Shown: positions 7,999-34,387, counted from the first letter of the stretch. The stretch: DNA of 64,000 nucleotides from an uncultured Bacilli bacterium (GCA_944333345.1 CALVKW010000001.1:5594-69593), one strand, 5' to 3'. A program made the numbers and translations. The notes: generated by a model not told the origin, from the letters alone.

Positions 7999-8592
7999 TT
8001 ACTTATTAAGCCCTTTCAAAAATTCACATATATCTTGAGCAACAACTTTATCATGATCATTTTGAATAGCCTGTGCAAGTTCTTCTTTTGTCCAAACCAC
8101 AAGAGACAAATCATTTAAAATATCATTAAATGTTTGTACTGTACTTGAATCATCAGAATTTCTTTCTAATTCATAATGATCTCCCATGAAACAATTAAGC
8201 TTTACCGTCAGTTGAACACCATCAGAAGTAACATAATCCGTTCTGTCAAATGTTCTGACAAAACCATTTTTCACATCAAGTACTTTAAGTAATACCCCAA
8301 TTGCTTCATAGGATTCTGCCGAACAATTTATAGTATATTCTTTTCTTTCAAAGTCTAATGCATTTCCTAACTTAATTTTAATTTTAATGCCTGAATCGCG
8401 AATATCTATAATGAGTCTTCCTTTACCACCAGCTACACTACCAATCGTGGGAATATGATCCGTATCACAATAAATACTAACTTGTCTATAGGTATGTTCT
8501 TTCCAACCTGCTTTTTTTGCATAAATACTAATTTTCTTTGCAATTTCCTTATCTAAGGAACCTCGTACTTCTTTTTCAATAATATTACTCAT
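7999..8592 (-). CDS. CYTH-like domain protein (putative triphosphate tunnel metalloenzyme or class IV adenylate-cyclase-like)
   Basis: N-terminal E-x-E-x-R/K pattern (EKEVRG) and a length of about 190 aa. The match is weak. Confidence 0.35.
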   Translation of the reverse strand: MSNIIEKEVRGSLDKEIAKKISIYAKKAGWKEHTYRQVSIYCDTDHIPTIGSVAGGKGRLIIDIRDSGIKIKIKLGNALDFERKEYTINCSAESYEAIGVLLKVLDVKNGFVRTFDRTDYVTSDGVQLTVKLNCFMGDHYELERNSDDSSTVQTFNDILNDLSLVVWTKEELAQAIQNDHDKVVAQDICEFLKGLNK

Positions 8593-25828: not shown

Positions 25829-26170
25829 TTATCTAAATTGACTGCAGGAACCACATTGTACATTGCTTACAACATTTTCTTCTGAGCAAGTATATTGTGG
25901 ACGATAAGTATGTCTAAATATATGATGATTAATGATTCTTGTATGAATTGGACATACATGTGGAACATCATGAACTATAGTTTTATGAATACATTTTTGT
26001 TGAACACCTTCTTGAACTGGACATCCCATACTAGGATTCATGTTCATGTTCATATTCATACCAGTACTATCATTACTCATCATATTAATATCCACATTCA
26101 TATCATTATCTACCATATTATTATTCCCCATAACAGTAGAATCAAAGTCGAAACTATTTTGATCAAACAT
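25829..26170 (-). CDS. cotD: Spore coat protein, CotD family (His/Pro-rich)
   Basis: IVHDVPHVCPIHTRIINHHIFRHTYRPQY resembles CotD (IVPHIHPQHTTNVNHQHFQHVHYFPH). An N-terminal Met/Asn-rich repeat is also present. Confidence 0.6.
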   Translation of the reverse strand: MFDQNSFDFDSTVMGNNNMVDNDMNVDINMMSNDSTGMNMNMNMNPSMGCPVQEGVQQKCIHKTIVHDVPHVCPIHTRIINHHIFRHTYRPQYTCSEENVVSNVQCGSCSQFR

Positions 26171-26229: not shown

Positions 26230-26260
26230 CCAAAAAAAGTATTACACGAAGTAATACTTT
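26230..26260 (-). terminator. Intrinsic terminator after ffh (AAGTATTAC-loop-GTAATACTT followed by a U7 run on the minus strand)
   Basis: A perfect 9-bp inverted repeat overlaps the ffh stop and is followed on the minus strand by TTTTTTT. Confidence 0.5.
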
Positions 26261-27566
26261 AAAAAGGCAATTTCATATTTCCATTAGAAAATTGCTTCAT
26301 CATTTTCTTCATCTGATCAAATTGTTGAAGTAATTTATTAACTTCTTGCACAGATGTACCACTCCCATTCGCAATTCTTGTTTTTCTACTTGCCTTAATA
26401 ATTTCTGGATGACGTCTTTCTTTTGGTGTCATAGATAATACAATAGCTTCAATATGCGCAAGTTGTTTCGGATCAATTTTAACATTATTAAGTCCCATCT
26501 TTTTAGCACCAGGAATTAATTTTAATAAATTTTCAAGCGGACCCAACTTTTTCATCTGTTTCATGGTAGAAAGAAAATCTTCCAAATCAAATTTTCCTTG
26601 TTGCATTCTTCTAGCCGTTTTTTCAGCCTCTTTCTCATCAATCGCATCCGTTGCTTTTTCTACTAAAGATACAATATCTCCCATACCAAGGATACGACCA
26701 GCCATACGTTCAGGATCAAAAGAATCAAGTCCATCTAATTTTTCAGAAACACCAATAAATTTAATAGGTACATGTGTTAAATGACGAACAGAAAGTGCAA
26801 CACCGCCTCTAGTATCACCATCTAATTTTGTAAGAACAACACCAGTAAGCGGAAGTTTATCATGAAACCCCGTAATAACATTAATAGCATCTTGACCCAT
26901 CATAGAATCAATAACTAACAAAATCTCATCTGGATTTACCTCAATACGAATATTTTCAAGTTCATCCATTAGTGCTTCATCAATATGAAGTCGACCAGCA
27001 GTATCAATTAAAACATAGTCATAACCATTTTCTTTCGCATAAGAAATCGCATTTTTAGAAATGGCAACAGGATCCCCACTACCTTCATCATAAACCTCAA
27101 TATTTAACTGTTTTCCAATTTGTTTTAACTGATCAATAGCAGCAGGACGATAAACATCACAAGCAACTAACAATGGTTTTTTAGCATGTTTCTTTCTTAA
27201 AAAATTAGCTAACTTCCCAATCGTAGTAGTCTTACCAGAACCTTGAAGACCAACTAGCATTAAAACCACAGGATTACCTTTTAAACAAATATCAGCTTGT
27301 TCTCCTCCAAGTAATTCAGTAAGTTCATCTTTTACAATTTTAACAAACAAATCTCCCGGATGGATACTGCTAGCAACTTCTTCTCCTAAAGCCTTTTCTT
27401 TAACTGTATTTGTAAATTCTTTTACTACTTTATAGTTAACATCTGCTTCTAATAATGCAAGTCGTATTTCCCGCATCATATCAGAAATATTATCTTCTGT
27501 AATCTTTCCATAACCTTTTATTTTGTGAATCGCATTCTGTAAACGATCTCCTAAACTTTCAAACAT
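26259..27566 (-). CDS. ffh: Signal recognition particle protein Ffh
   Basis: N domain, G domain with GLQGSGKTTT and DTAGR, and a Met-rich M domain. Confidence 0.97.
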   Translation of the reverse strand: MFESLGDRLQNAIHKIKGYGKITEDNISDMMREIRLALLEADVNYKVVKEFTNTVKEKALGEEVASSIHPGDLFVKIVKDELTELLGGEQADICLKGNPVVLMLVGLQGSGKTTTIGKLANFLRKKHAKKPLLVACDVYRPAAIDQLKQIGKQLNIEVYDEGSGDPVAISKNAISYAKENGYDYVLIDTAGRLHIDEALMDELENIRIEVNPDEILLVIDSMMGQDAINVITGFHDKLPLTGVVLTKLDGDTRGGVALSVRHLTHVPIKFIGVSEKLDGLDSFDPERMAGRILGMGDIVSLVEKATDAIDEKEAEKTARRMQQGKFDLEDFLSTMKQMKKLGPLENLLKLIPGAKKMGLNNVKIDPKQLAHIEAIVLSMTPKERRHPEIIKASRKTRIANGSGTSVQEVNKLLQQFDQMKKMMKQFSNGNMKLPF

Positions 27567-27605
27567 ATAATCACCTATTGTTTATTATACAAAAAAATAA
27601 AAAAC

Positions 27606-27636
27606 AAGTAAATGAAAAAAACAGGTTACCCTGTTT
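27606..27636 (-). terminator. Intrinsic terminator after the HerA-like gene (AACAGG-GTAA-CCTGTT followed by a U-run), separating it from ffh
   Basis: The hairpin immediately follows the stop codon and is followed on the minus strand by TTTTTTTCATTT. Confidence 0.5.
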
Positions 27637-30007
27637 ATTCCAACATATCATTCGGAGTAATAGCCACCAATGGAGTACCATTTTGAGTAACACCAGTAAC
27701 AGAATTGCTATCACTGCCATTATTAATAGATAAAATATTAGATAAATTATTATCTGCTTCTGCATCATCTAAAGTAGGAAAATCATCAGAGTCTGAATCG
27801 TCGTCAAGATTTAATGTATTATTTCCCAAAGCAGGAGGTTCTAACGGACTACTGACACTGTTAGAGCTTTCTACAGGAGTATCAAAATTAAATATTGCTC
27901 CACTAGTATTTACATCTTGATTATTAACTGTGCTAGGAGTTGGAGAATCTGTAATTTCAACCAATGGTTTTTGAGGACTAACACCTTCAGAGGTAATAGA
28001 AGGAATAGGTCCCATAGACTGTTCAGGCATACTAACAGGAGTAGGCTCAGAAGGCTCTTCTACCATCCCACCTAAATTTTTAGAAAGATCATCAAATTCT
28101 TTATTTAAATTCCCATCGGAAAAACTATTAGTAGTACTAAAAGAAGAATCAGAAATATTAGAATTTACTGGTGTGGAAGGAACGGAAGGAATAGAAATAG
28201 AAGCAGTAGCAGGACTTTCTTCTGGTACAGTTCTTCTCGTTCCACCTCCAGAACCATTACCATTCCAAATTGTAACAACATCACAGTTTCCACTCCATGG
28301 AGCAGGGTTAGGCATCTCCAATTTACAAATTAATGGTATTTTAAATGCCATACCAAATCCTAAACAAGTACCAGATTGTAACGTCTTTTGTTTCTCAACA
28401 ATTTCATCACTAATATTAGGAACCATCTTTCGGATATAATCTACATCAGTAGGGTGATTCATTTTAAATATTAAGAAATTAGAGCATTGAGAAATAACAG
28501 TATCAGAAAGTTCAACTGGTCTTTGTGATATAAGACCTAATAAAACTCCATACTTACGCCCCTCTTTAGCAATACGTTCAAATATATTATAACCAATCAA
28601 GAAACGGTCTGTATCATTCTGAATATAACGGTGAGCTTCTTCAACAATAATATGAAAAGGAATACTAGCTCTCTCTTTTAATCCTTTAGCAAACTCAAAT
28701 ACCAAACGGGAATAAATCTTAGTAATAACTTTAGCAAAGTCATCATCAACATCATCCAAATTGAAATTAACAATTTGATATTTACGACCATTATTAATAA
28801 GTAAAGAAGACAAATAACTCTCTAATGAAATATAATTAGGGACATCAAAGAACTTCGCATTTTCTCCAACAATTAAAGAATGTAGACGGACTTTAATAGT
28901 AACAGCATCACCGTAGGTATTTTCATTACGAAGCCATCCTTCACTAATCAAAGTAAAGTTAAGAGCTTTCTCTAAAGTATCTAGAGTATAGAAAACTCCA
29001 CCTTTAGGCTCATAATTATCATATTCATTTTTAATAAATGAAGAAACATACTCGGTAAGCAATACACTTTCAGAAAACTGTCCTTGAGAATCAATTAAGA
29101 AACATTCACGGAATTTTCTAGTATATCCAATACCTTGTACAGGAGCCTCTAAATTAAATTGAGGTGTAGAACAACTAGCCAAAATAGAAAATATTTCATT
29201 TCTCTTATTAGGAGAAGTCTCATTGGTGTAAAGAATGGTCATAATAGCTTTCGCAATCAAATGATTCTTATAGTTATTAGCATCCATATCCGTCTGTGAA
29301 AATATTAATGCTAACTTTAACATTCTTTCAATAATTGGTAATTGAGAATGATTTGTAGCTTGTAATAACAAAGCTAAATCACTAGCATTAAGTAACCAAA
29401 TAGGAAGACGCAATTTCTCACCAATTCCATCCACTTCATTCGTACTAAAAAAGCGATAATGATAATTAGGATTAATAGAATTTAAATTGTTAAAAGCGTT
29501 ATAATATTCACCAGAAGAATCAAAAAGTAAGATATTTGCTTTATAAGGAAACAATCTTTGATCATGAAACATATTTTGAAAAAGACGAGATACTCCACAA
29601 GATTTACCACTACCACTGTTACCAAAAATAGCAAAGTGATTACTAAAAAAATTATTAACATCTAAATAAACTGGAAAATCATTATAAAAGGGACTAACAC
29701 CAAATCTCATATATCCTTCTTTATCTTCTCCAACAATCATAGGAATCTCGGACTGATCAATAACACGAATAGAAGCATCCAATGCTGGTTTACGAATCGT
29801 ACCACCAATTAACCTACCATTAACAATCTCACCTAAAAACCTAGCTTTAACAATATCTTTATCTAAGTCGTCTACTTCACCCAATACTTTTTTATCTTTA
29901 TCTTCAAATATAAGATGCAAATTCATCAAATTAACAGTCAAATGATCTGCATCTTTCAAACGGATATTTGCAGAATGATCACTAATATAAACTATTCTAT
30001 CAAACAT
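27635..30007 (-). CDS. HerA/DUF87-family (FtsK-HerA superfamily) ATPase with a roughly 230-aa disordered, acidic, S/T/P-rich C-terminal tail
   Basis: Walker A is GNSGSGKS. Walker B is HIIVEEAHRY. HerA-type blocks are ISQRPVELSDTVISQCSNFLIFKMNHPTD. The N-terminal region resembles a HAS-barrel. No NurA or Sir2 partner lies in cis. Confidence 0.8.
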   Translation of the reverse strand: MFDRIVYISDHSANIRLKDADHLTVNLMNLHLIFEDKDKKVLGEVDDLDKDIVKARFLGEIVNGRLIGGTIRKPALDASIRVIDQSEIPMIVGEDKEGYMRFGVSPFYNDFPVYLDVNNFFSNHFAIFGNSGSGKSCGVSRLFQNMFHDQRLFPYKANILLFDSSGEYYNAFNNLNSINPNYHYRFFSTNEVDGIGEKLRLPIWLLNASDLALLLQATNHSQLPIIERMLKLALIFSQTDMDANNYKNHLIAKAIMTILYTNETSPNKRNEIFSILASCSTPQFNLEAPVQGIGYTRKFRECFLIDSQGQFSESVLLTEYVSSFIKNEYDNYEPKGGVFYTLDTLEKALNFTLISEGWLRNENTYGDAVTIKVRLHSLIVGENAKFFDVPNYISLESYLSSLLINNGRKYQIVNFNLDDVDDDFAKVITKIYSRLVFEFAKGLKERASIPFHIIVEEAHRYIQNDTDRFLIGYNIFERIAKEGRKYGVLLGLISQRPVELSDTVISQCSNFLIFKMNHPTDVDYIRKMVPNISDEIVEKQKTLQSGTCLGFGMAFKIPLICKLEMPNPAPWSGNCDVVTIWNGNGSGGGTRRTVPEESPATASISIPSVPSTPVNSNISDSSFSTTNSFSDGNLNKEFDDLSKNLGGMVEEPSEPTPVSMPEQSMGPIPSITSEGVSPQKPLVEITDSPTPSTVNNQDVNTSGAIFNFDTPVESSNSVSSPLEPPALGNNTLNLDDDSDSDDFPTLDDAEADNNLSNILSINNGSDSNSVTGVTQNGTPLVAITPNDMLE

Positions 30008-30142
30008 AACAGTCCCCTCTTTACACTTTATCTATTCTAATATTGATTATACTAACAATCTGTCTTTTTTTCAAGACAAAATATAGAGCATTTACAAAAT
30101 AAAAATAATATGATAAAATAGCAGACACTATGGAGGGATAGG

Positions 30143-31000
30143 ATGCAAGAAAATATAGACAGTTTAAATACATTAGAAAATTTAAAAGGACAGTATCGAA
30201 CAAAAACAGCAAAAGTAAACGAACGGATTACTACAGAAGAAGAAAATATAAGAAGACAATTAGATAAAGAAAGATTACCAAAAAAAATACTAAATACTGA
30301 AGAATGGAACAAAAGAGTAACCCAATATTTATATTCCATTAATATTTGGGATATCAGTTTTCTAAACTATAACATGAAAATAGAAAAAAGTTTTAATAAT
30401 AAAGGATCTATCTACAGCACACAATTGTTTTTTTTAGATGAAGAAATGAAAAAAATAGCTCAAAGCTATGGAATTGATAATGAATGGGATTTATTTACTA
30501 TAATGTTAGATTATCAATCTATGAAAAAAGGCCATGCTATAATACAGGATAAAAATTTTATAATTGCATGGAACAAAGCAAATACACTGGGCCACTTAGA
30601 TAAGATTTTTCAAAATGAACAAAATCGCCTAGATTATCAAGGGACTTATGCCGCCTTTCAATATGTAAAAAAACACATTGGAGAAAGACTATCAACCACC
30701 ACAAAAGGGAATGAAGAAGAATTAGTATGGAAAGACTTTGATAAAAAGAAAATAATAGTAACTGAAAATTTAGCACCTATCGCATCCTATATATTAACGC
30801 AAAGAAATCAAATTCCAGGAGCTAGAGTATTTGTAAACAATGGTGGACTATCAAGAACAACAAAAAAGAAAAAAGAATGCTCACCTACCTATGTTCAAAA
30901 AAGACTTATTGACGCCATTGCCTTCGGTACAACCATAGAAAAATTACAACAACAAAACTATGAAGATACCAAACAACTAATATATTTACCAAAAAAATAG
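30143..31000 (+). CDS. Hypothetical protein (285 aa), K-rich, divergently transcribed from the HerA-like gene
   Basis: Good RBS GGAGGGATAGG. A sigma-A-like promoter sits upstream (TTTACA, 17-nt spacer, TAAAAT). No recognisable domain. Confidence 0.55.
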   Translation: MQENIDSLNTLENLKGQYRTKTAKVNERITTEEENIRRQLDKERLPKKILNTEEWNKRVTQYLYSINIWDISFLNYNMKIEKSFNNKGSIYSTQLFFLDEEMKKIAQSYGIDNEWDLFTIMLDYQSMKKGHAIIQDKNFIIAWNKANTLGHLDKIFQNEQNRLDYQGTYAAFQYVKKHIGERLSTTTKGNEEELVWKDFDKKKIIVTENLAPIASYILTQRNQIPGARVFVNNGGLSRTTKKKKECSPTYVQKRLIDAIAFGTTIEKLQQQNYEDTKQLIYLPKK

Positions 31001-31023
31001 TATCACCCAAGATACTATTTTTA
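30991..31023 (+). terminator. Bidirectional intrinsic terminator (A-run, TAGTATC-ACCCAA-GATACTA, T-run) between the 285-aa gene and ylxM
   Basis: A perfect 7-bp stem flanked by A7 and T5 runs overlaps the stop codons of both convergent genes. Confidence 0.55.
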
Positions 31024-31335
31024 TATTAACTCTTCTAATTGCTTTCTAATAGATAAATTATCAACAGATTGACTTAGTTCTTCTAATTTCTTTCTTTTTT
31101 CTAGTAACTGAAGTTTTTCTTCATATTCTTCTAACTTTTCTGTAACAATATGAATTTGTTTAAAAATTGCATTACGACTAACACCATAATTTTCAGCCAT
31201 CTCACCCAAACTTAAATTCTGAAAATAATAATCTTCAAAATAGTTTTTCTGCTTTGTAGTTAATAATTCATGATATAAATCATATAATTCTCCATAATAC
31301 ACAAAATCTTCCATATTACACTCCTGAAACAGCAA
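31021..31335 (-). CDS. ylxM: UPF0122 putative DNA-binding protein YlxM (helix-turn-helix, SRP operon)
   Basis: YGELYDLYHELLTTKQKNYFEDYYFQNLSLGEMAENYGVSRNAIFKQI is a typical YlxM core. The length is 104 aa. Confidence 0.8.
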   Translation of the reverse strand: MLFQECNMEDFVYYGELYDLYHELLTTKQKNYFEDYYFQNLSLGEMAENYGVSRNAIFKQIHIVTEKLEEYEEKLQLLEKRKKLEELSQSVDNLSIRKQLEELI

Positions 31336-31642
31336 GATAAAGAAGTAAATCTAAAATCAATAAAAATATTCCAACAATCGAATAACAAATAGTCATTTTC
31401 TTTCTTCTATAAATTATTTGATTATTATAAGCCATAACAAGTAAAGTAATACCTAGAAACAATTGAAATAAATAAAGAACAGAGGAATCAAAAAGATACC
31501 AAACGAAAAGTCCTATGGTAAAAAAAGTTAAAAATAATTGAATATTAATAAAAATAATATTAAATCTAGTAATTGGTCTACTCTGTTGCTCTGCCTTCTT
31601 TTCTTGATTGCTTTCTTTTTTACTCTTCTTTCTCTTCGCCAT
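31316..31642 (-). CDS. Small membrane protein of unknown function (start probably MAKRKK)
   Basis: A K-rich N-terminus is followed by three hydrophobic helices. It lies between ftsY and ylxM. Confidence 0.4.
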   Translation of the reverse strand: MAKRKKSKKESNQEKKAEQQSRPITRFNIIFINIQLFLTFFTIGLFVWYLFDSSVLYLFQLFLGITLLVMAYNNQIIYRRKKMTICYSIVGIFLLILDLLLYLAVSGV

Positions 31643-31643
31643 A

Positions 31644-32657
31644 TTACACCATATCCTTAAACAATCCATAAATATATTTCTCTATATCAAATACTTGTAA
31701 ATCTTCTTTAGCTTCACCTAAACCAATAAATTTCACTGGAAGCCCTACTTGTTCTTTAATAGCCAAAACAATACCACCTTTTGCAGTACCATCTAATTTT
31801 GTTAAGACAATTCCTGTAATATCAGTAATTTCTTTAAAAGCTTTTGCTTGACTAATACCATTTTGTCCAGTAGTAGCATCAATTACAAGTAATGTCTCAT
31901 GCGGACCATCATCAATAATTCCTTGAATAACCTTATTAATTTTTTCCAACTCTTTCATTAAATTAACTTTATTTTGTAATCTCCCCGCAGTATCAATTAA
32001 TACCACATCAAACGCTTCTTGTTTAGCCATTTGACATCCATCATAAACAACACTAGCGGGATCACTCCCCTCTTCTTTTCCATAAAAAGAAACTCCTACT
32101 TTTTCACTCCAAAGACGTAACTGCTCTACAGCACCAGCACGGAAAGTATCTGCAGCAACAAGCAATACTTTTTTCCCTTCTTCCTTCATCTTCCAAGCAA
32201 TTTTACCAATAGTAGTTGTTTTTCCAACCCCATTAACACCAACAAACAAAAGAACCGTAGGACCATTTTCTTGATATTTAATCTTACTAGATAAAACTTC
32301 ATCTCCTACATAAATGATAAACAATTCATCCACAATAATTTCTTTTAATAATTCAGGATCACTAATTTTTTCTTTCGCTGCTCTATCTTTTAATCGATCA
32401 ACAAAATCCATAACCGTATTAACACCAATATCAGCCATAATTAATATTTCTTCCAACTCATCAAAATAATCATCATTAATAGTACGATATTTATTAGTTA
32501 AGTTAGCAAGTTTCGATACAAATCCCTGTCTGGACTTACTAAGCCCCTTTTCATAAACTTTTACTTCTTCTACTACTTCATTTTCTTCTTTTTTTATATC
32601 AGAAGAAATATCTTTATTTCCCTGAAACATATTTTTTAATTTATTAAAAATACCCAT
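31644..32657 (-). CDS. ftsY: Signal recognition particle receptor FtsY
   Basis: SRP GTPase domain with GVNGVGKTTT and DTAGR. An acidic N-terminal region is present. The start is probably MGIFNKLKNMF. Confidence 0.95.
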   Translation of the reverse strand: MGIFNKLKNMFQGNKDISSDIKKEENEVVEEVKVYEKGLSKSRQGFVSKLANLTNKYRTINDDYFDELEEILIMADIGVNTVMDFVDRLKDRAAKEKISDPELLKEIIVDELFIIYVGDEVLSSKIKYQENGPTVLLFVGVNGVGKTTTIGKIAWKMKEEGKKVLLVAADTFRAGAVEQLRLWSEKVGVSFYGKEEGSDPASVVYDGCQMAKQEAFDVVLIDTAGRLQNKVNLMKELEKINKVIQGIIDDGPHETLLVIDATTGQNGISQAKAFKEITDITGIVLTKLDGTAKGGIVLAIKEQVGLPVKFIGLGEAKEDLQVFDIEKYIYGLFKDMV

Positions 32658-32725
32658 AATAATCACCAACACTATTTTAACATAGAATAACACCCTTTAC
32701 AACGAAGAAAAAATAGTGCTAAGCA

Positions 32726-34387
32726 CTATCTTTGTGGAAAAGAGATAATATTAGATTTAACATATGGCTTTCCTTCAACCTCTACAGTATTAGGAAATTT
32801 ACCACGTAAACGAGAAACCAAACGCTCTCTTCTACTTTCATAAATACGTTCACAACTAGAAATAGCGTCACAAACATCTTCTAAATCTACTTGATCATGT
32901 TCATGAAAAGAAGCAAAAGCAAATGATTTTTCTAAAACAGAAAGAACTAAATGAGGATTATATTGCATATCATCATTAACTCTTCCCTTCTTATCCGTTC
33001 CTTGAATTAAAGTATCAAAAATTTTCATCTTCTCATCATTATTAAATGCAAACTCAACACCGGTCAATTCTTCATATCTTGAAATAGAACCATTCAAAAT
33101 AGAATACAAAATATCATTTTCAGGTTCTTTCAAAGTAATGGTATCAAATCTTCTTCGAAAGGCATCATCCATAGCAAAATACTTTTGATATTCCTCCGTA
33201 GTAGTTGCTCCAATCATCTGAATATCCCCACGAGATAAATAAGGTTTTAACATATTCATAAAATCAAGACCATCACTACTAGAAGCTCCGGTTCCTTTTA
33301 CTGTATGAATCTCATCCAAAAACAAAATAGTATTTTTATCTTCTCTAATTGCTTTCAATAAAGATTCTACTCTTTCTTCAAACTCTCCTCGATATTTCGC
33401 ATCAGCAATAAGTTCTGAAGTATTAATCATTAAAATTCTCTTATCTAAAAGACATTCTGGAACCATACGATTTTGAATACGATAAGCAATACCTTCTACA
33501 AGAGCCGTTTTTCCCACTCCAGCAGGCCCTAACAAAATAAGTGATCTAGTAATCAAAGAAACAATAGCTTGATCTATCTCTTTTTCTCTACCAATCGCAG
33601 GATTCATCACAAAATCCTCATCGGTTAAATATTTACCATAATCTTTTAAAGGTTCTTTTGCTTTCGATATTCCCAAAAGTTTATTCATAAAGTCAGCGGC
33701 TTCTTCCTCACATTTTTTCTTAACCTCTGGATGTTCCGTAAGATATTCATCAACTTTTATATTTACTCTATCAATAAAATAACGTTCTACTAATTTAGAA
33801 GAAAAAATAGAATCTTTAGAAACTTTCGATATCACTTCAGATACAATAGATGAATTTCTTTCAGAATTGAACAAATCAACAACTAAAGCTTCCGGACTAA
33901 CCAAGAAATAACGAGAAATTAATAATTTTTCCATCGGTGCAAAATACTTAGAATAACAAGAGTCAATACTTTCTTCATCCGCTTCCAAAACGGAATATCT
34001 ATCAATATCTGGAAAACATTCCAAAACTTTCTCAAGAGTAATATTAAAATCACCAAACAATTCTTTCGCATCATTATCCGTAGTTAATACAGCCAAAAGC
34101 AAAGATAAACTTCTTTTATCCACATGATTTAACATATTGTTTTTTAACATATTGTTTTTTTCACCAAAATAAGAATCAAGTTCAGAAAGTGGACTACTAC
34201 CAGTAAGAATATCTAATGGCATTCCTAAAAAACTGGGTTTAGAACTCATTTCCGACTTTTCAAAAGAAAGTGGTTGATTAACAATACCTGCGTACCAATG
34301 AGCAGCCTCTCGTAAAATATCATAAACTTCAGGTGTCATATTTCCTTTCATTTCATCATCCCCCATAACTGTGAACATATTATACAA
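32726..34387 (-). CDS. ClpA/ClpB/ClpC-family AAA+ ATPase carrying only an N-domain-like region and the first nucleotide-binding module (D1). There is no D2 and no ClpP-docking loop.
   Basis: The Clp-N-like repeat is LSLLLAVLTTDNDAKELFGDF. D1 blocks are NPAIGREKEIDQAIVSL, GPAGVGKTALVEG, LFLDEIHTV, the sensor GATTTEEYQKYFAMDDAFRRRF, and EPENDILYSIL. The protein ends about 70 aa after D1. Confidence 0.75.
   Translation of the reverse strand: MYNMFTVMGDDEMKGNMTPEVYDILREAAHWYAGIVNQPLSFEKSEMSSKPSFLGMPLDILTGSSPLSELDSYFGEKNNMLKNNMLNHVDKRSLSLLLAVLTTDNDAKELFGDFNITLEKVLECFPDIDRYSVLEADEESIDSCYSKYFAPMEKLLISRYFLVSPEALVVDLFNSERNSSIVSEVISKVSKDSIFSSKLVERYFIDRVNIKVDEYLTEHPEVKKKCEEEAADFMNKLLGISKAKEPLKDYGKYLTDEDFVMNPAIGREKEIDQAIVSLITRSLILLGPAGVGKTALVEGIAYRIQNRMVPECLLDKRILMINTSELIADAKYRGEFEERVESLLKAIREDKNTILFLDEIHTVKGTGASSSDGLDFMNMLKPYLSRGDIQMIGATTTEEYQKYFAMDDAFRRRFDTITLKEPENDILYSILNGSISRYEELTGVEFAFNNDEKMKIFDTLIQGTDKKGRVNDDMQYNPHLVLSVLEKSFAFASFHEHDQVDLEDVCDAISSCERIYESRRERLVSRLRGKFPNTVEVEGKPYVKSNIISFPQR

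What the first reader, a model, noticed from the sequence alone, without database searches (positions are those of the whole stretch)
27606..31023. Two-gene insertion splits the conserved ylxM-ffh pair: a HerA/DUF87-family ATPase with a long disordered acidic tail, plus a divergent orphan gene
In Bacilli, Clostridia and most other Firmicutes, ylxM sits immediately upstream of ffh in one operon. Here 3.4 kb lies between them. On the ffh strand is a 790-aa FtsK-HerA-superfamily ATPase (Walker A GNSGSGKS, Walker B VEEAHRY, HerA blocks ISQRPVEL..ISQCSNF). It carries a roughly 230-aa S/T/P/D-rich low-complexity tail, which is unusual for HerA. Transcribed divergently from it is a 285-aa lysine-rich protein with no recognisable domain but its own promoter and RBS. 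Intrinsic terminators at both ends (27606-27636 and 30991-31023) insulate the unit from ylxM and ffh. Bacterial HerA homologues normally work with a cis-encoded nuclease or effector: NurA in DNA end resection, or Sir2 or DUF4297 in anti-phage systems. No such partner lies in the operon here. The divergent 285-aa protein may therefore be a new partner or effector. The weak IWD...FLDEEMK pattern in it is not diagnostic. The pair could be a new defence or DNA-processing module sitting in a conserved integration hotspot.
Basis: partly seen in the sequence, partly recalled or inferred. Interest (0 to 1): 0.75.

Follow-up and report, generated by a model that had tools for sequence, protein, structure and literature searches.

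The report
Conserved orphan HerA ATPase beside ffh
The ATPase between ylxM and ffh is not a mobile anti-phage insert: it is a strongly conserved HerA-type motor with a floppy acidic tail, fixed at this spot in about 80 species of an uncultured gut bacterial order, and the 285-aa gene beside it is an occasional, unrelated passenger.

Summary
A 790-aa HerA/DUF87 ATPase with a ~220-aa disordered acidic tail and a divergent 285-aa orphan gene lie between ylxM and ffh, with hairpin terminators at both ends.

The interpretation as a two-gene defence module in an integration hotspot does not hold.
- In 80 species-level genomes of RF39-type uncultured Bacilli, herA sits between ylxM and ffh on the same strand (ylxM upstream 64/66, ffh downstream 52/55).
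- herA has its own conserved promoter and terminator.
- Its core is under purifying selection at least as strong as ffh (dN/dS 0.02-0.05), and its divergence tracks that of Ffh.
- It has normal GC content and no nuclease, Sir2 or DUF4297 partner.
- The 285-aa gene occurs in only 8 of 86 loci, as one of many alternative occupants of a variable slot upstream of the herA promoter. Its relatives elsewhere lack HerA neighbours, and some follow spoVA genes. Its confident all-alpha model matches no known fold.

Most likely herA encodes a housekeeping hexameric nucleic-acid translocase. Its hypervariable tail carries conserved short C-terminal motifs that probably dock partners encoded elsewhere. That function is inferred, not shown. 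I rate it a new variant of a known kind, of moderate interest.

The parts
27635..30007 (-). herA-like gene, 790 aa (stop codon 27635-27637)
   Evidence: ORF list. Pfam DUF87 above the gathering score. PADLOC HerA E 2e-108. Closest solved relatives are HerA of HerA-DUF4297 (9c1m, 8xau) and Sir2-HerA systems.
28295..30007 (-). HerA core, residues 1-571: N-terminal barrel region, RecA-like ATPase and helical insertion
   Evidence: 77-98% identical over about 585 aa in 80 species. Catalytic residues K135, E456/E457, R484 and Q495-R496-P497 are invariant in 29 diverse sequences. dN/dS is 0.02-0.05.
29600..29623 (-). Walker A GNSGSGKS (residues 129-136)
   Evidence: Coordinates. G129, N130, G132, G134, K135 and S136 are invariant and S133 nearly so; S131 varies.
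28625..28645 (-). Walker B VEEAHRY (residues 455-461)
   Evidence: Coordinates. E456 to Y461 are invariant; V455 varies.
27638..28294 (-). Disordered acidic S/T/P/N/Q-rich tail (residues 572-790)
   Evidence: Composition. A tail is present in all 78 distinct orthologues: 35-409 aa, median 194, median net charge -17, hypervariable in sequence.
27638..27679 (-). Conserved C-terminal short motif GTPLVAITPNDMLE (residues 777-790)
   Evidence: The only part of the tail conserved among close relatives. A P-L-[IVLM]-x-[ILFV] motif lies in the last 30 residues of 46 of 78 orthologues. An acidic run ending in F or Y lies at the end of 19 of 78.
27779..27814 (-). Internal tail motif LNLDDDSDSDDF (residues 732-743), resembling the acidic-DF C-termini of more distant orthologues
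27950..27970 (-). Internal tail motif KPLVEIT (residues 680-686), a second copy of the PLhxh motif
27619..27636 (-). Intrinsic terminator hairpin plus T-run directly after the herA stop
   Evidence: Scan and fold (-13 kcal/mol, z -3.7). A hairpin plus T-run is present in 62 of 62 herA-ffh intergenic regions, with differing stem sequences.
27584..27612 (-). ffh promoter-like site TTTACT-17-TATAAT, followed by the RBS AGGTGA
   Evidence: TTTACT...TGTATAAT...AGGTGAT is conserved in relatives.
30046..30074 (-). herA promoter TTGAAA-17-TATAAT (11 of 12 matches)
   Evidence: The same CTTG[TA]AAA-17-TATAAT element lies upstream of herA in species that lack ORF285.
30008..30045 (-). herA 5' leader with the conserved ...AGAATAGA...AAAGAGGGG RBS region
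   Evidence: Sequence. Conserved in the ~100-bp ylxM-herA gaps of relatives.
30091..30119 (+). ORF285 promoter-like site TTTACA-17-TAAAAT with TG, followed by the RBS GGAGGG
30143..31000 (+). ORF285: member of an uncharacterised all-alpha Bacillota family and a sporadic occupant of the slot upstream of herA
   Evidence: No library hit. 89 cluster representatives found. AF2 model pLDDT 94 and pTM 0.82, with no fold match. dN/dS 0.29-0.65. Present in 8 of 86 loci.
30993..31022 (.). Bidirectional terminator between the convergent ORF285 and ylxM: perfect 12-bp stem with an A-run and a T-run
   Evidence: Sequence. Folds at -11.7 kcal/mol (z -7.2) on the + strand and -12 kcal/mol on the - strand.
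31021..31335 (-). ylxM (UPF0122), the conserved upstream neighbour
   Evidence: Pfam E 1e-24. Upstream of herA on the same strand in 64 of 66 testable loci.
26259..27566 (-). ffh, the conserved downstream neighbour
   Evidence: Pfam SRP54 and SRP_SPB. Downstream of herA on the same strand in 52 of 55 testable loci.

Best explanation
Shown: herA here is a vertically inherited gene whose conservation matches that of housekeeping genes, in a clade of uncultured, low-GC gut Bacilli (GTDB order RF39, around family CAG-611/Ca. Faecimonas). It is a monocistronic unit with its own sigma-A-type promoter and intrinsic terminator, locked between the ftsY-ylxM unit and a separately promoted ffh. Its ATPase core keeps every catalytic residue and is under very strong purifying selection. 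Its C-terminal tail is a hypervariable acidic disordered linker that ends in, and in this genome also contains, short conserved hydrophobic-acidic motifs. ORF285 is not part of this unit. It is one of many alternative genes found in a variable slot between the ylxM terminator and the herA promoter.

Inferred: the protein forms a HerA-type hexameric ring that uses ATP to translocate on nucleic acid, most likely DNA. It probably serves a constitutive chromosome-maintenance task (repair or end processing, or segregation) rather than phage defence. The six flexible tails would act as tethers whose terminal motifs dock a partner or partners encoded elsewhere in the genome. That would stand in for the cis-encoded nuclease or Sir2 partner of other HerA systems. 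ORF285 most likely has an unrelated, possibly sporulation-linked, role.
For: Identity: Pfam DUF87, PADLOC HerA E 2e-108, and PDB HerA chains at E 3e-54 to 3e-27 by profile search.

Fixed position: 80 species-level genomes show ftsY-small ORF-ylxM-herA-ffh. ylxM is upstream in 64/66 and ffh downstream in 52/55.

Selection: core dN/dS is 0.02-0.05 against 0.03-0.06 for ffh. The core is more conserved than FtsY in 65 of 68 loci and than YlxM in 65 of 65. Catalytic residues are invariant.

Vertical descent: HerA and Ffh distance matrices correlate (Mantel r 0.59, 0 of 999 permutations reach it). GC is 30.8% against 30.0% for the window. There are essentially no phage homologues, and plasmid homologues reach only 27-31% identity.

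Own transcription unit: the promoter and leader are conserved in the ~100-bp ylxM-herA gaps, and a terminator follows herA in 62 of 62 loci.

Tail: present in all orthologues, with recurring C-terminal motifs.

ORF285 is separable: present in 8 of 86 loci, absent from genomes with 96-97% identical HerA, and found elsewhere without HerA.
Against: No experiment or direct computation shows the substrate or the cellular role. The closest characterised relatives are all anti-phage HerAs, so a fixed immune function is not excluded. The position between SRP genes could instead point to a protein-targeting role. The tail motifs are degenerate: 17 of 78 orthologues fit neither simple pattern. No partner has been identified. 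I could not see how far the family extends beyond the ~123 genomes picked up by two peptide patterns. I could not check whether these genomes lack FtsK/SpoIIIE, AddAB or RecJ. ORF285-family genes lie divergently next to herA in several lineages whose copies have diverged to 36-72% identity (window group, L024, L050, L088), which leaves some room for a functional link.
Confidence: 0.55

Rival explanations
1. One reading: herA plus ORF285 form a new two-gene anti-phage or DNA-processing module that inserted into an integration hotspot, with ORF285 as the new effector or partner.
For: The closest characterised HerAs belong to two-gene defence systems. ORF285 is adjacent, divergent and uncharacterised. 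ORF285-family genes lie next to herA in several lineages.
Against: herA is fixed in all relatives, while ORF285 is in 8 of 86 loci. herA dN/dS is 0.02-0.05 and ORF285 dN/dS is 0.29-0.65. There is no compositional anomaly. ORF285 has no PADLOC hit and no nuclease, Sir2 or other known fold. ORF285 relatives occur without HerA. The NCBIfam anti-phage HerA cut-offs are missed by a wide margin (171 against 850 and 134 against 800).
Confidence: 0.04
2. A domesticated or fixed immune HerA: the gene is still a defence sensor or motor that became fixed in this clade. It would act alone or recruit an effector encoded elsewhere through its tail motifs.
For: The nearest relatives by sequence are anti-phage HerAs. 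A hypervariable tail could reflect an arms race.
Against: Defence genes are rarely single-locus, syntenic and under dN/dS of about 0.02 across about 80 species. The promoter looks constitutive, and no effector is linked in any locus. The tail varies in length and in low-complexity composition, which looks like linker drift, while its end motifs are kept.
Confidence: 0.12
3. A protein-targeting or secretion role linked to SRP: the ATPase works with FtsY, YlxM and Ffh. FtsK/HerA-superfamily members such as EssC and VirB4/VirD4 drive protein or nucleoprotein export.
For: The position between ylxM and ffh is invariant. The superfamily includes secretion ATPases (established knowledge), and there are weak Pfam hits to FtsK_SpoIIIE and TrwB (E 0.02-0.025).
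Against: herA is transcribed separately from both neighbours, with its own promoter and terminator. It has no transmembrane segment or signal sequence (sequence). The FtsK and TrwB hits are below their cut-offs. All strong similarity is to DNA-acting HerAs.
Confidence: 0.1
4. ORF285 is a lineage-specific regulator or modulator of herA. The idea rests on the shared divergent promoter region, a layout often seen between regulators and their target genes.
For: The promoters lie back to back within 135 bp. The same divergent arrangement recurs in L001, L008-L010, L013, L024, L050 and L088. The C-terminal three helices could form a helix-turn-helix-like unit (inspection; not significant in any search).
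Against: Most species run the same herA promoter without ORF285. No DNA-binding family or fold was detected. In other Firmicutes the family sits after spoVA genes or alone.
Confidence: 0.1

Closest known systems
HerA of the HerA-DUF4297 anti-phage system (PDB 9c1m, 8xau; bioRxiv 10.1101/2024.10.24.620088; PMC11291478)
   Same: The best solved-structure matches: E 3e-54 and 3e-43 by profile search. They share the Walker A and B motifs, the EGRKYG arginine-finger region, the SQRP motif and the C-terminal beta region up to the PNP-P-S motif.
   Different: No DUF4297 or Cap4-like nuclease is adjacent. Identity is only about 30%. This gene is chromosomal, syntenic and vertically inherited. It carries a ~200-aa disordered tail beyond the point where the alignment to the solved 571-585-aa chains ends.
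HerA of Sir2-HerA anti-phage systems (PDB 8ziq, 8j4u; PMC11472057, PMC11514289), including Listeria and Lactobacillus plasmid copies
   Same: The closest annotated plasmid homologues, at 27-29% identity over 90% of the core. Each is encoded directly after a SIR2 gene.
   Different: No Sir2 gene is found in any of the 86 loci. The NCBIfam anti-phage HerA equivalog cut-offs are not reached. The gene is not on mobile elements.
Archaeal and Deinococcus-type HerA-NurA DNA end-resection motor (PDB 4d2i; PMC12977600)
   Same: HerA fold family (E 6e-35). It is a chromosomally encoded DNA-repair motor, which is the kind of housekeeping role proposed here.
   Different: No NurA gene is adjacent. The NCBIfam HerA repair equivalogs score 111 against 800 and 92 against 970. 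The tail is absent from those proteins: the solved chain is 500 aa.
FtsK/SpoIIIE DNA pumps
   Same: Same ASCE P-loop superfamily. FtsK also joins a motor to another module through a long low-complexity linker (established knowledge).
   Different: Pfam FtsK_SpoIIIE scores only 14.8 bits against a cut-off of 24. There is no N-terminal membrane domain. The linker here is C-terminal and ends in a short motif rather than a folded domain.
Acidic C-terminal tails with a terminal aromatic residue in SSB, phage T7 gp2.5 and the gp4 helicase (from memory; a lead, not a test)
   Same: A globular oligomer, then a flexible acidic segment, then a short hydrophobic or aromatic tip used to dock partner proteins. 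Many orthologues here end in ...DDDDD..DF[SA].
   Different: No sequence homology. The tail here is much longer. The dominant motif in the window's own lineage is PLVxIT-PxDMLE rather than D-D-D-I-P-F.

Membership tests
HerA / DUF87 (PF01935) clade of the FtsK-HerA superfamily | Sequence match to the family model above the curated threshold | tested here: met
   Pfam DUF87 78.9 bits against a cut-off of 23.2. Ten PADLOC HerA profiles score E < 1e-30.
HerA / DUF87 (PF01935) clade of the FtsK-HerA superfamily | Intact Walker A, Walker B, arginine-finger and sensor motifs of the RecA-like core | tested here: met
   GNSGSGKS, VEEAHRY, EGRKYG and ISQRP are present. The key catalytic residues are invariant in 29 diverse orthologues.
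HerA / DUF87 (PF01935) clade of the FtsK-HerA superfamily | N-terminal HAS-barrel domain | tested here: inconclusive
   Profile alignments to solved HerAs and to PADLOC models begin at residues 44-54. Residues 1-48 are conserved but not aligned. No structure was predicted for this protein because both prediction jobs went to ORF285.
HerA / DUF87 (PF01935) clade of the FtsK-HerA superfamily | Hexameric ring that translocates on DNA | not testable with these tools
   Needs biochemistry or cryo-EM.
Sir2-HerA or HerA-DUF4297 anti-phage systems | A Sir2 or DUF4297 effector gene encoded directly beside herA | tested here: not met
   Across 86 loci the neighbours are ylxM, ffh and variable cargo. ORF285 has no Pfam or PADLOC hit, and its model is all-alpha with no fold match.
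Sir2-HerA or HerA-DUF4297 anti-phage systems | HerA scoring as an NCBIfam anti-phage HerA equivalog | tested here: not met
   NF042944 scores 171 against 850 and NF042943 scores 134 against 800.
Sir2-HerA or HerA-DUF4297 anti-phage systems | Patchy, horizontally mobile distribution typical of defence genes | tested here: not met
   Fixed synteny in 80 species. Mantel r 0.59 with Ffh. Native GC content. dN/dS 0.02-0.05.
Sir2-HerA or HerA-DUF4297 anti-phage systems | Confers phage resistance | not testable with these tools
   Needs a phage challenge experiment.
HerA-NurA end-resection machinery | An adjacent nurA gene, and HerA scoring as a repair-HerA equivalog | tested here: not met
   No NurA in any locus. 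NF040937 scores 111 against 800 and NF040819 scores 92 against 970.
FtsK/SpoIIIE | Match to PF01580 above threshold, plus an N-terminal membrane anchor | tested here: not met
   14.8 bits against a cut-off of 24. There is no hydrophobic N-terminal segment in the sequence.
SRP operon (ftsY-ylxM-ffh) as a co-transcribed unit that includes herA | No terminator or promoter between herA and its SRP neighbours | tested here: not met
   A hairpin plus T-run and a promoter lie on both sides of herA, and they are conserved in relatives. This is sequence-based only. No transcript data are available.

The most novel reading that the evidence does not exclude
This HerA is an essential, lineage-defining housekeeping motor of RF39-type Bacilli. 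It would have taken over a core chromosome function normally done by other machines, such as FtsK/SpoIIIE-like DNA pumping during division or sporulation, or end resection. It would be recruited through the short motifs on its six disordered acidic tails rather than through a cis-encoded partner. That would be the first bacterial HerA with a constitutive, non-immune, NurA-independent role.
Probability: 0.2. Interest if true: 0.7.

Novelty: new variant of a known kind. Interest (0 to 1): 0.42.

Why it matters
In the literature I searched, bacterial HerA ATPases are described as partner-dependent anti-phage motors or as NurA-coupled repair motors. This one is an orphan. It has no partner gene nearby, is fixed at one chromosomal position across about 80 species of an uncultured, reduced-genome gut order, is conserved about as tightly as Ffh, and carries a long disordered tail with conserved end motifs. 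If its role is housekeeping, the known biology of the HerA family widens, and the tail motifs point to how such motors might be recruited without an operon partner. For screening, it shows that a defence-model hit (PADLOC HerA, E 1e-108) plus an apparent insertion into a conserved operon can be a clade-wide core gene. Comparative synteny settled the question quickly. ORF285 defines an uncharacterised Bacillota family with a confidently predicted fold that matches nothing in the libraries available here, and a possible link to sporulation.

Tried and rejected
- ORF285 structure from 14 close homologues gave pLDDT 52 and was unusable. It improved to pLDDT 94 only with the 65-sequence alignment.
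- Pfam, NCBIfam, PHROGs and PADLOC scans of ORF285 and 65 relatives gave no consistent family. A profile search of ORF285 against PDB gave nothing below E 0.06. tblastn against plasmids and phages gave no match.
- A literature search for HerA together with ffh or ylxM found nothing relevant. The RF39 sporulation paper does not mention spoIIIE or ftsK, so I could not test the idea that herA replaces FtsK.
- My first automated terminator detector was too strict (30 of 62). A simpler stem plus T-run criterion found 62 of 62.
- I could not see HerA relatives below about 75% full-length identity. The homologue search saturated at 8000 close relatives, and the genome scan used only two peptide patterns.
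- I considered and rejected a compositional anomaly or recent horizontal transfer, paralogues in the window, and a hidden enzymatic domain in the tail. The tail gave no match in Pfam, PADLOC or NCBIfam when the full-length protein was scanned; PHROGs was run on the core only.

Full report
**1. What is in the sequence**

The window carries, all on the minus strand, ftsY (31644-32693), a small overlapping membrane ORF (31316-31669), ylxM (31021-31335), a 790-aa ORF (27635-30007) and ffh (26259-27566). A 285-aa ORF (30143-31000) lies on the plus strand between ylxM and the 790-aa ORF.

Pfam confirms YlxM/UPF0122, Ffh and, for the 790-aa protein, DUF87 'Helicase HerA central domain' (78.9 bits, cut-off 23.2). 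PADLOC's HerA profiles hit strongly; the best, PDLC04102, scores E 2e-108 over residues 94-582.

Residues 572-790 form a low-complexity tail: 26% S/T, 10% P, 15% D/E and 2% K/R. ORF285 hits nothing in Pfam, PADLOC, NCBIfam or PHROGs.

Both claimed terminators are real hairpins. One is at 27636-27619 (-13 kcal/mol). The other is a perfect 12-bp stem at 30993-31022, flanked by A- and T-runs, so it can terminate both convergent genes (-11.7 kcal/mol, z -7.2). The 135-bp divergent region holds back-to-back promoter-like sites.

**2. The two genes have different histories**

The homologue search for the 790-aa protein saturated at 8000 close relatives, named only 'DUF87 domain-containing protein' from Mycoplasmatota or Ca. 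Faecimonas MAGs. ORF285 had only 20 close homologues.

Gene neighbourhoods of three HerA homologues showed two patterns:
- A close relative (L001) has the same ylxM / ORF285 (antisense) / herA / ffh layout.
- Two others, with 96-97% identical HerA cores, have ylxM-herA-ffh with only about 100 bp between ylxM and herA and no ORF285.

A scan of one genome per GTDB species returned 80 loci whose HerA core (about 585 aa) is 77-98% identical to the window's. I mapped the window's proteins onto all loci:
- ylxM lies upstream on the same strand in 64 of 66 testable loci.
- ffh lies downstream on the same strand in 52 of 55.
- The median ylxM-herA gap is about 105 bp.

A profile of ORF285 finds it in only 8 of 86 loci, always antisense between ylxM and herA. 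Where that gap is enlarged in other species, it holds unrelated cargo: zinc-ribbon and membrane proteins, an acyltransferase-like protein, GNAT- and HD-like proteins. In L050 and L088 it holds a LysR regulator plus a weak radical-SAM-like protein together with a divergent ORF285 homologue. So herA is a fixed feature of the clade, and ORF285 is one occasional occupant of a variable slot.

The clade includes Ca. Faecimonas, which is GTDB genus CAG-877, order RF39, family CAG-611, with 28% GC and a 1.4-Mb genome (PMC8035907). This matches the window's 30% GC.

**3. herA behaves like a core gene**

- Selection. In the six relatives whose HerA core is 92-98% identical, the core has dN/dS of 0.02-0.05. 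This is at or below ffh (0.03-0.06) and well below ftsY (~0.09-0.13) and ylxM (0.06-0.29). ORF285 has 0.29-0.65. In the most distant locus compared (L050, HerA core 82% identical), herA reaches 0.146 against 0.066 for ffh.
- Conservation across 80 species. The core is more conserved than FtsY in 65 of 68 loci and than YlxM in 65 of 65, and close to Ffh and RNase J.
- Vertical descent. Pairwise HerA and Ffh distances correlate (Mantel r 0.59; 0 of 999 permutations reach it).
- Catalytic residues. Walker A K135, Walker B E456/E457, R484 and the Q495-R496-P497 motif are invariant in 29 diverse orthologues.
- Composition and copy number. GC is native (30.8% against 30.0%) and the window holds no paralogue.
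- Mobility. The core has essentially no phage homologues. Plasmid homologues reach only 27-31% identity.

**4. Transcription architecture**

In species without ORF285, the ~100-bp ylxM-herA spacer contains three elements: a hairpin plus T-run after ylxM, a conserved CTTG(T/A)AAA-17-TATAAT promoter, and a conserved leader ending in AGAGGGG. The window's herA promoter (30074-30046) and leader are the same elements. ORF285 therefore sits upstream of an intact herA promoter.

Downstream, all 62 short herA-ffh spacers have a hairpin plus T-run right after the herA stop. The stem sequences differ but always pair. A TTTACT...TGTATAAT promoter and an AGGTGAT RBS for ffh follow.

So herA is a monocistronic unit wedged between two SRP transcription units, not a member of one SRP operon. 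This rests on sequence only; I had no transcript data.

**5. The tail**

All 78 distinct orthologues have a tail. It is 35-409 aa long (median 194), with a median net charge of -17 and hypervariable sequence. The extreme C-terminus is nevertheless conserved:
- P-L-[IVLM]-x-[ILFV], often followed by acidic residues, lies in the last 30 residues of 46 of 78.
- An acidic run ending in F or Y lies at the end of 19 of 78.
- Some orthologues have both.
- Most of the remaining 17 show related L-x-I-D-D-[IV]-[IV] patterns.

The window's tail carries three such elements: KPLVEIT (680-686), LNLDDDSDSDDF (732-743) and the terminal GTPLVAITPNDMLE.

A folded oligomer joined by a variable acidic linker to a conserved short tip is the layout seen in SSB, FtsZ and phage T7 gp2.5/gp4. 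That comparison comes from memory and is a lead, not a test. It suggests the tails dock partner proteins.

**6. Relation to known HerAs**

The best solved relatives are HerA of HerA-DUF4297 (9c1m, 8xau; identified through), Sir2-HerA chains (8ziq, 8j4u) and archaeal HerA (4d2i). The nearest plasmid homologues are encoded directly after SIR2 genes in Listeria and Lactobacillus plasmids.

The window protein misses every curated equivalog cut-off:
- anti-phage HerA: 171 against 850 and 134 against 800
- repair HerA: 111 against 800 and 92 against 970

Its FtsK_SpoIIIE hit is below threshold. No Sir2, DUF4297 or NurA gene is linked in any locus. It is therefore a HerA-family member, but not a member of any characterised HerA system.

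**7. ORF285**

An exhaustive profile search found 89 cluster representatives, with the C-terminal half (about residues 150-286) the most widespread part. With a 65-sequence alignment, AlphaFold gave a confident all-alpha model: pLDDT 94 and pTM 0.82, with a long N-terminal helix followed by a helical globule.

The model has no significant match anywhere:
- Foldseek against PDB: best E 2
- BFVD: best E 0.23
- PDB by sequence profile

No Pfam or NCBIfam family recurs among the 65 members, and there are no plasmid or phage homologues.

Outside the RF39 clade, family members sit alone among unrelated genes (L087, L096). In two separate clusters they sit directly after spoVAC/spoVAEB, near scpA/scpB. 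RF39 is predicted to sporulate (PMC10868615), so a sporulation-linked role is a reasonable lead.

Nothing supports a nuclease, Sir2 or other effector role. A modulatory link to herA, suggested by the shared divergent promoter region, cannot be excluded but is not required, because most species lack the gene.

**8. Verdict**

The model built on it does not stand: this is not a two-gene defence or DNA-processing insertion with ORF285 as the partner.

The best-supported reading is a housekeeping, vertically inherited orphan HerA motor with tail-borne docking motifs. The housekeeping and vertical parts are shown. The DNA-translocase role and partner docking are inferred from family membership and architecture.

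I rate it a new variant of a known kind, of moderate interest. The main open questions are what the motor acts on and what the tail motifs bind.

Noticed in passing
window 30008-30045 (- strand); the ylxM-herA spacers of L011-L086: The herA 5' leader between the -10 box and the start codon is conserved across species and contains repeated ATAG(G/A)G(G) elements, for example ATAGGGGAATATGAATAGAGGGG. This could be more than an RBS, such as a regulatory RNA or a protein-binding site.
   Followed up: partly
L047 5109-7001; L049 1347-2552; L050 3897-7001; L063 3851-7001; L071 4559-7001; L081 5547-7001; L088 3338-6251: The ylxM-herA gap is a variable slot carrying different cargo in different species: zinc-ribbon and membrane proteins, a 370-aa acyltransferase-like protein, and HD- or HIT-like proteins. 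In L050 and L088 it carries a three-gene set: an ORF285 homologue, a LysR regulator and a weak radical-SAM-like protein.
   Followed up: partly
L028, L033, L048, L061, L065 (herA stop to ffh start = 1.2-3.1 kb): A second variable slot lies between the herA terminator and ffh. Some species have 1-3 kb of extra sequence there instead of the usual ~70 bp. I did not examine the contents.
   Followed up: no
L091-L093 and L097: ORF285-family genes (P0159, P0161) lie directly downstream of spoVAC/spoVAEB, near scpA/scpB, in other Firmicutes. This hints at a sporulation-associated function for the uncharacterised family.
   Followed up: partly
window 32726-34387 (- strand): A 553-aa single-AAA-domain ATPase lies upstream of ftsY. 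It is 98-99% identical in the closest relatives (L001, L010), only 40-50% identical in some others (L009, L015, L016, L021) and not detected in many. It is another variable element in this otherwise syntenic region.
   Followed up: no
window 25829-26170 (- strand): A 113-aa protein with an N/M/D-rich low-complexity N-terminus and a Cys/His-rich C-terminal half lies just downstream of ffh in most related loci (59-89% identity). It has no Pfam hit. The His/Cys pattern resembles small spore-coat-type proteins, but that comparison is from memory only.
   Followed up: partly
window 31316-31669 (- strand): A small predicted membrane protein ORF (117 aa) overlaps the end of ftsY and the start of ylxM. 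It is conserved, though fast-evolving (29-73% identity), between ftsY and ylxM in many relatives. It has no Pfam hit.
   Followed up: no
L054, L055, L057: These three species have herA with a short tail (35-92 aa) and no ffh within the downstream flank, so they are exceptions to the synteny. This could reflect rearrangement or assembly breaks.
   Followed up: no
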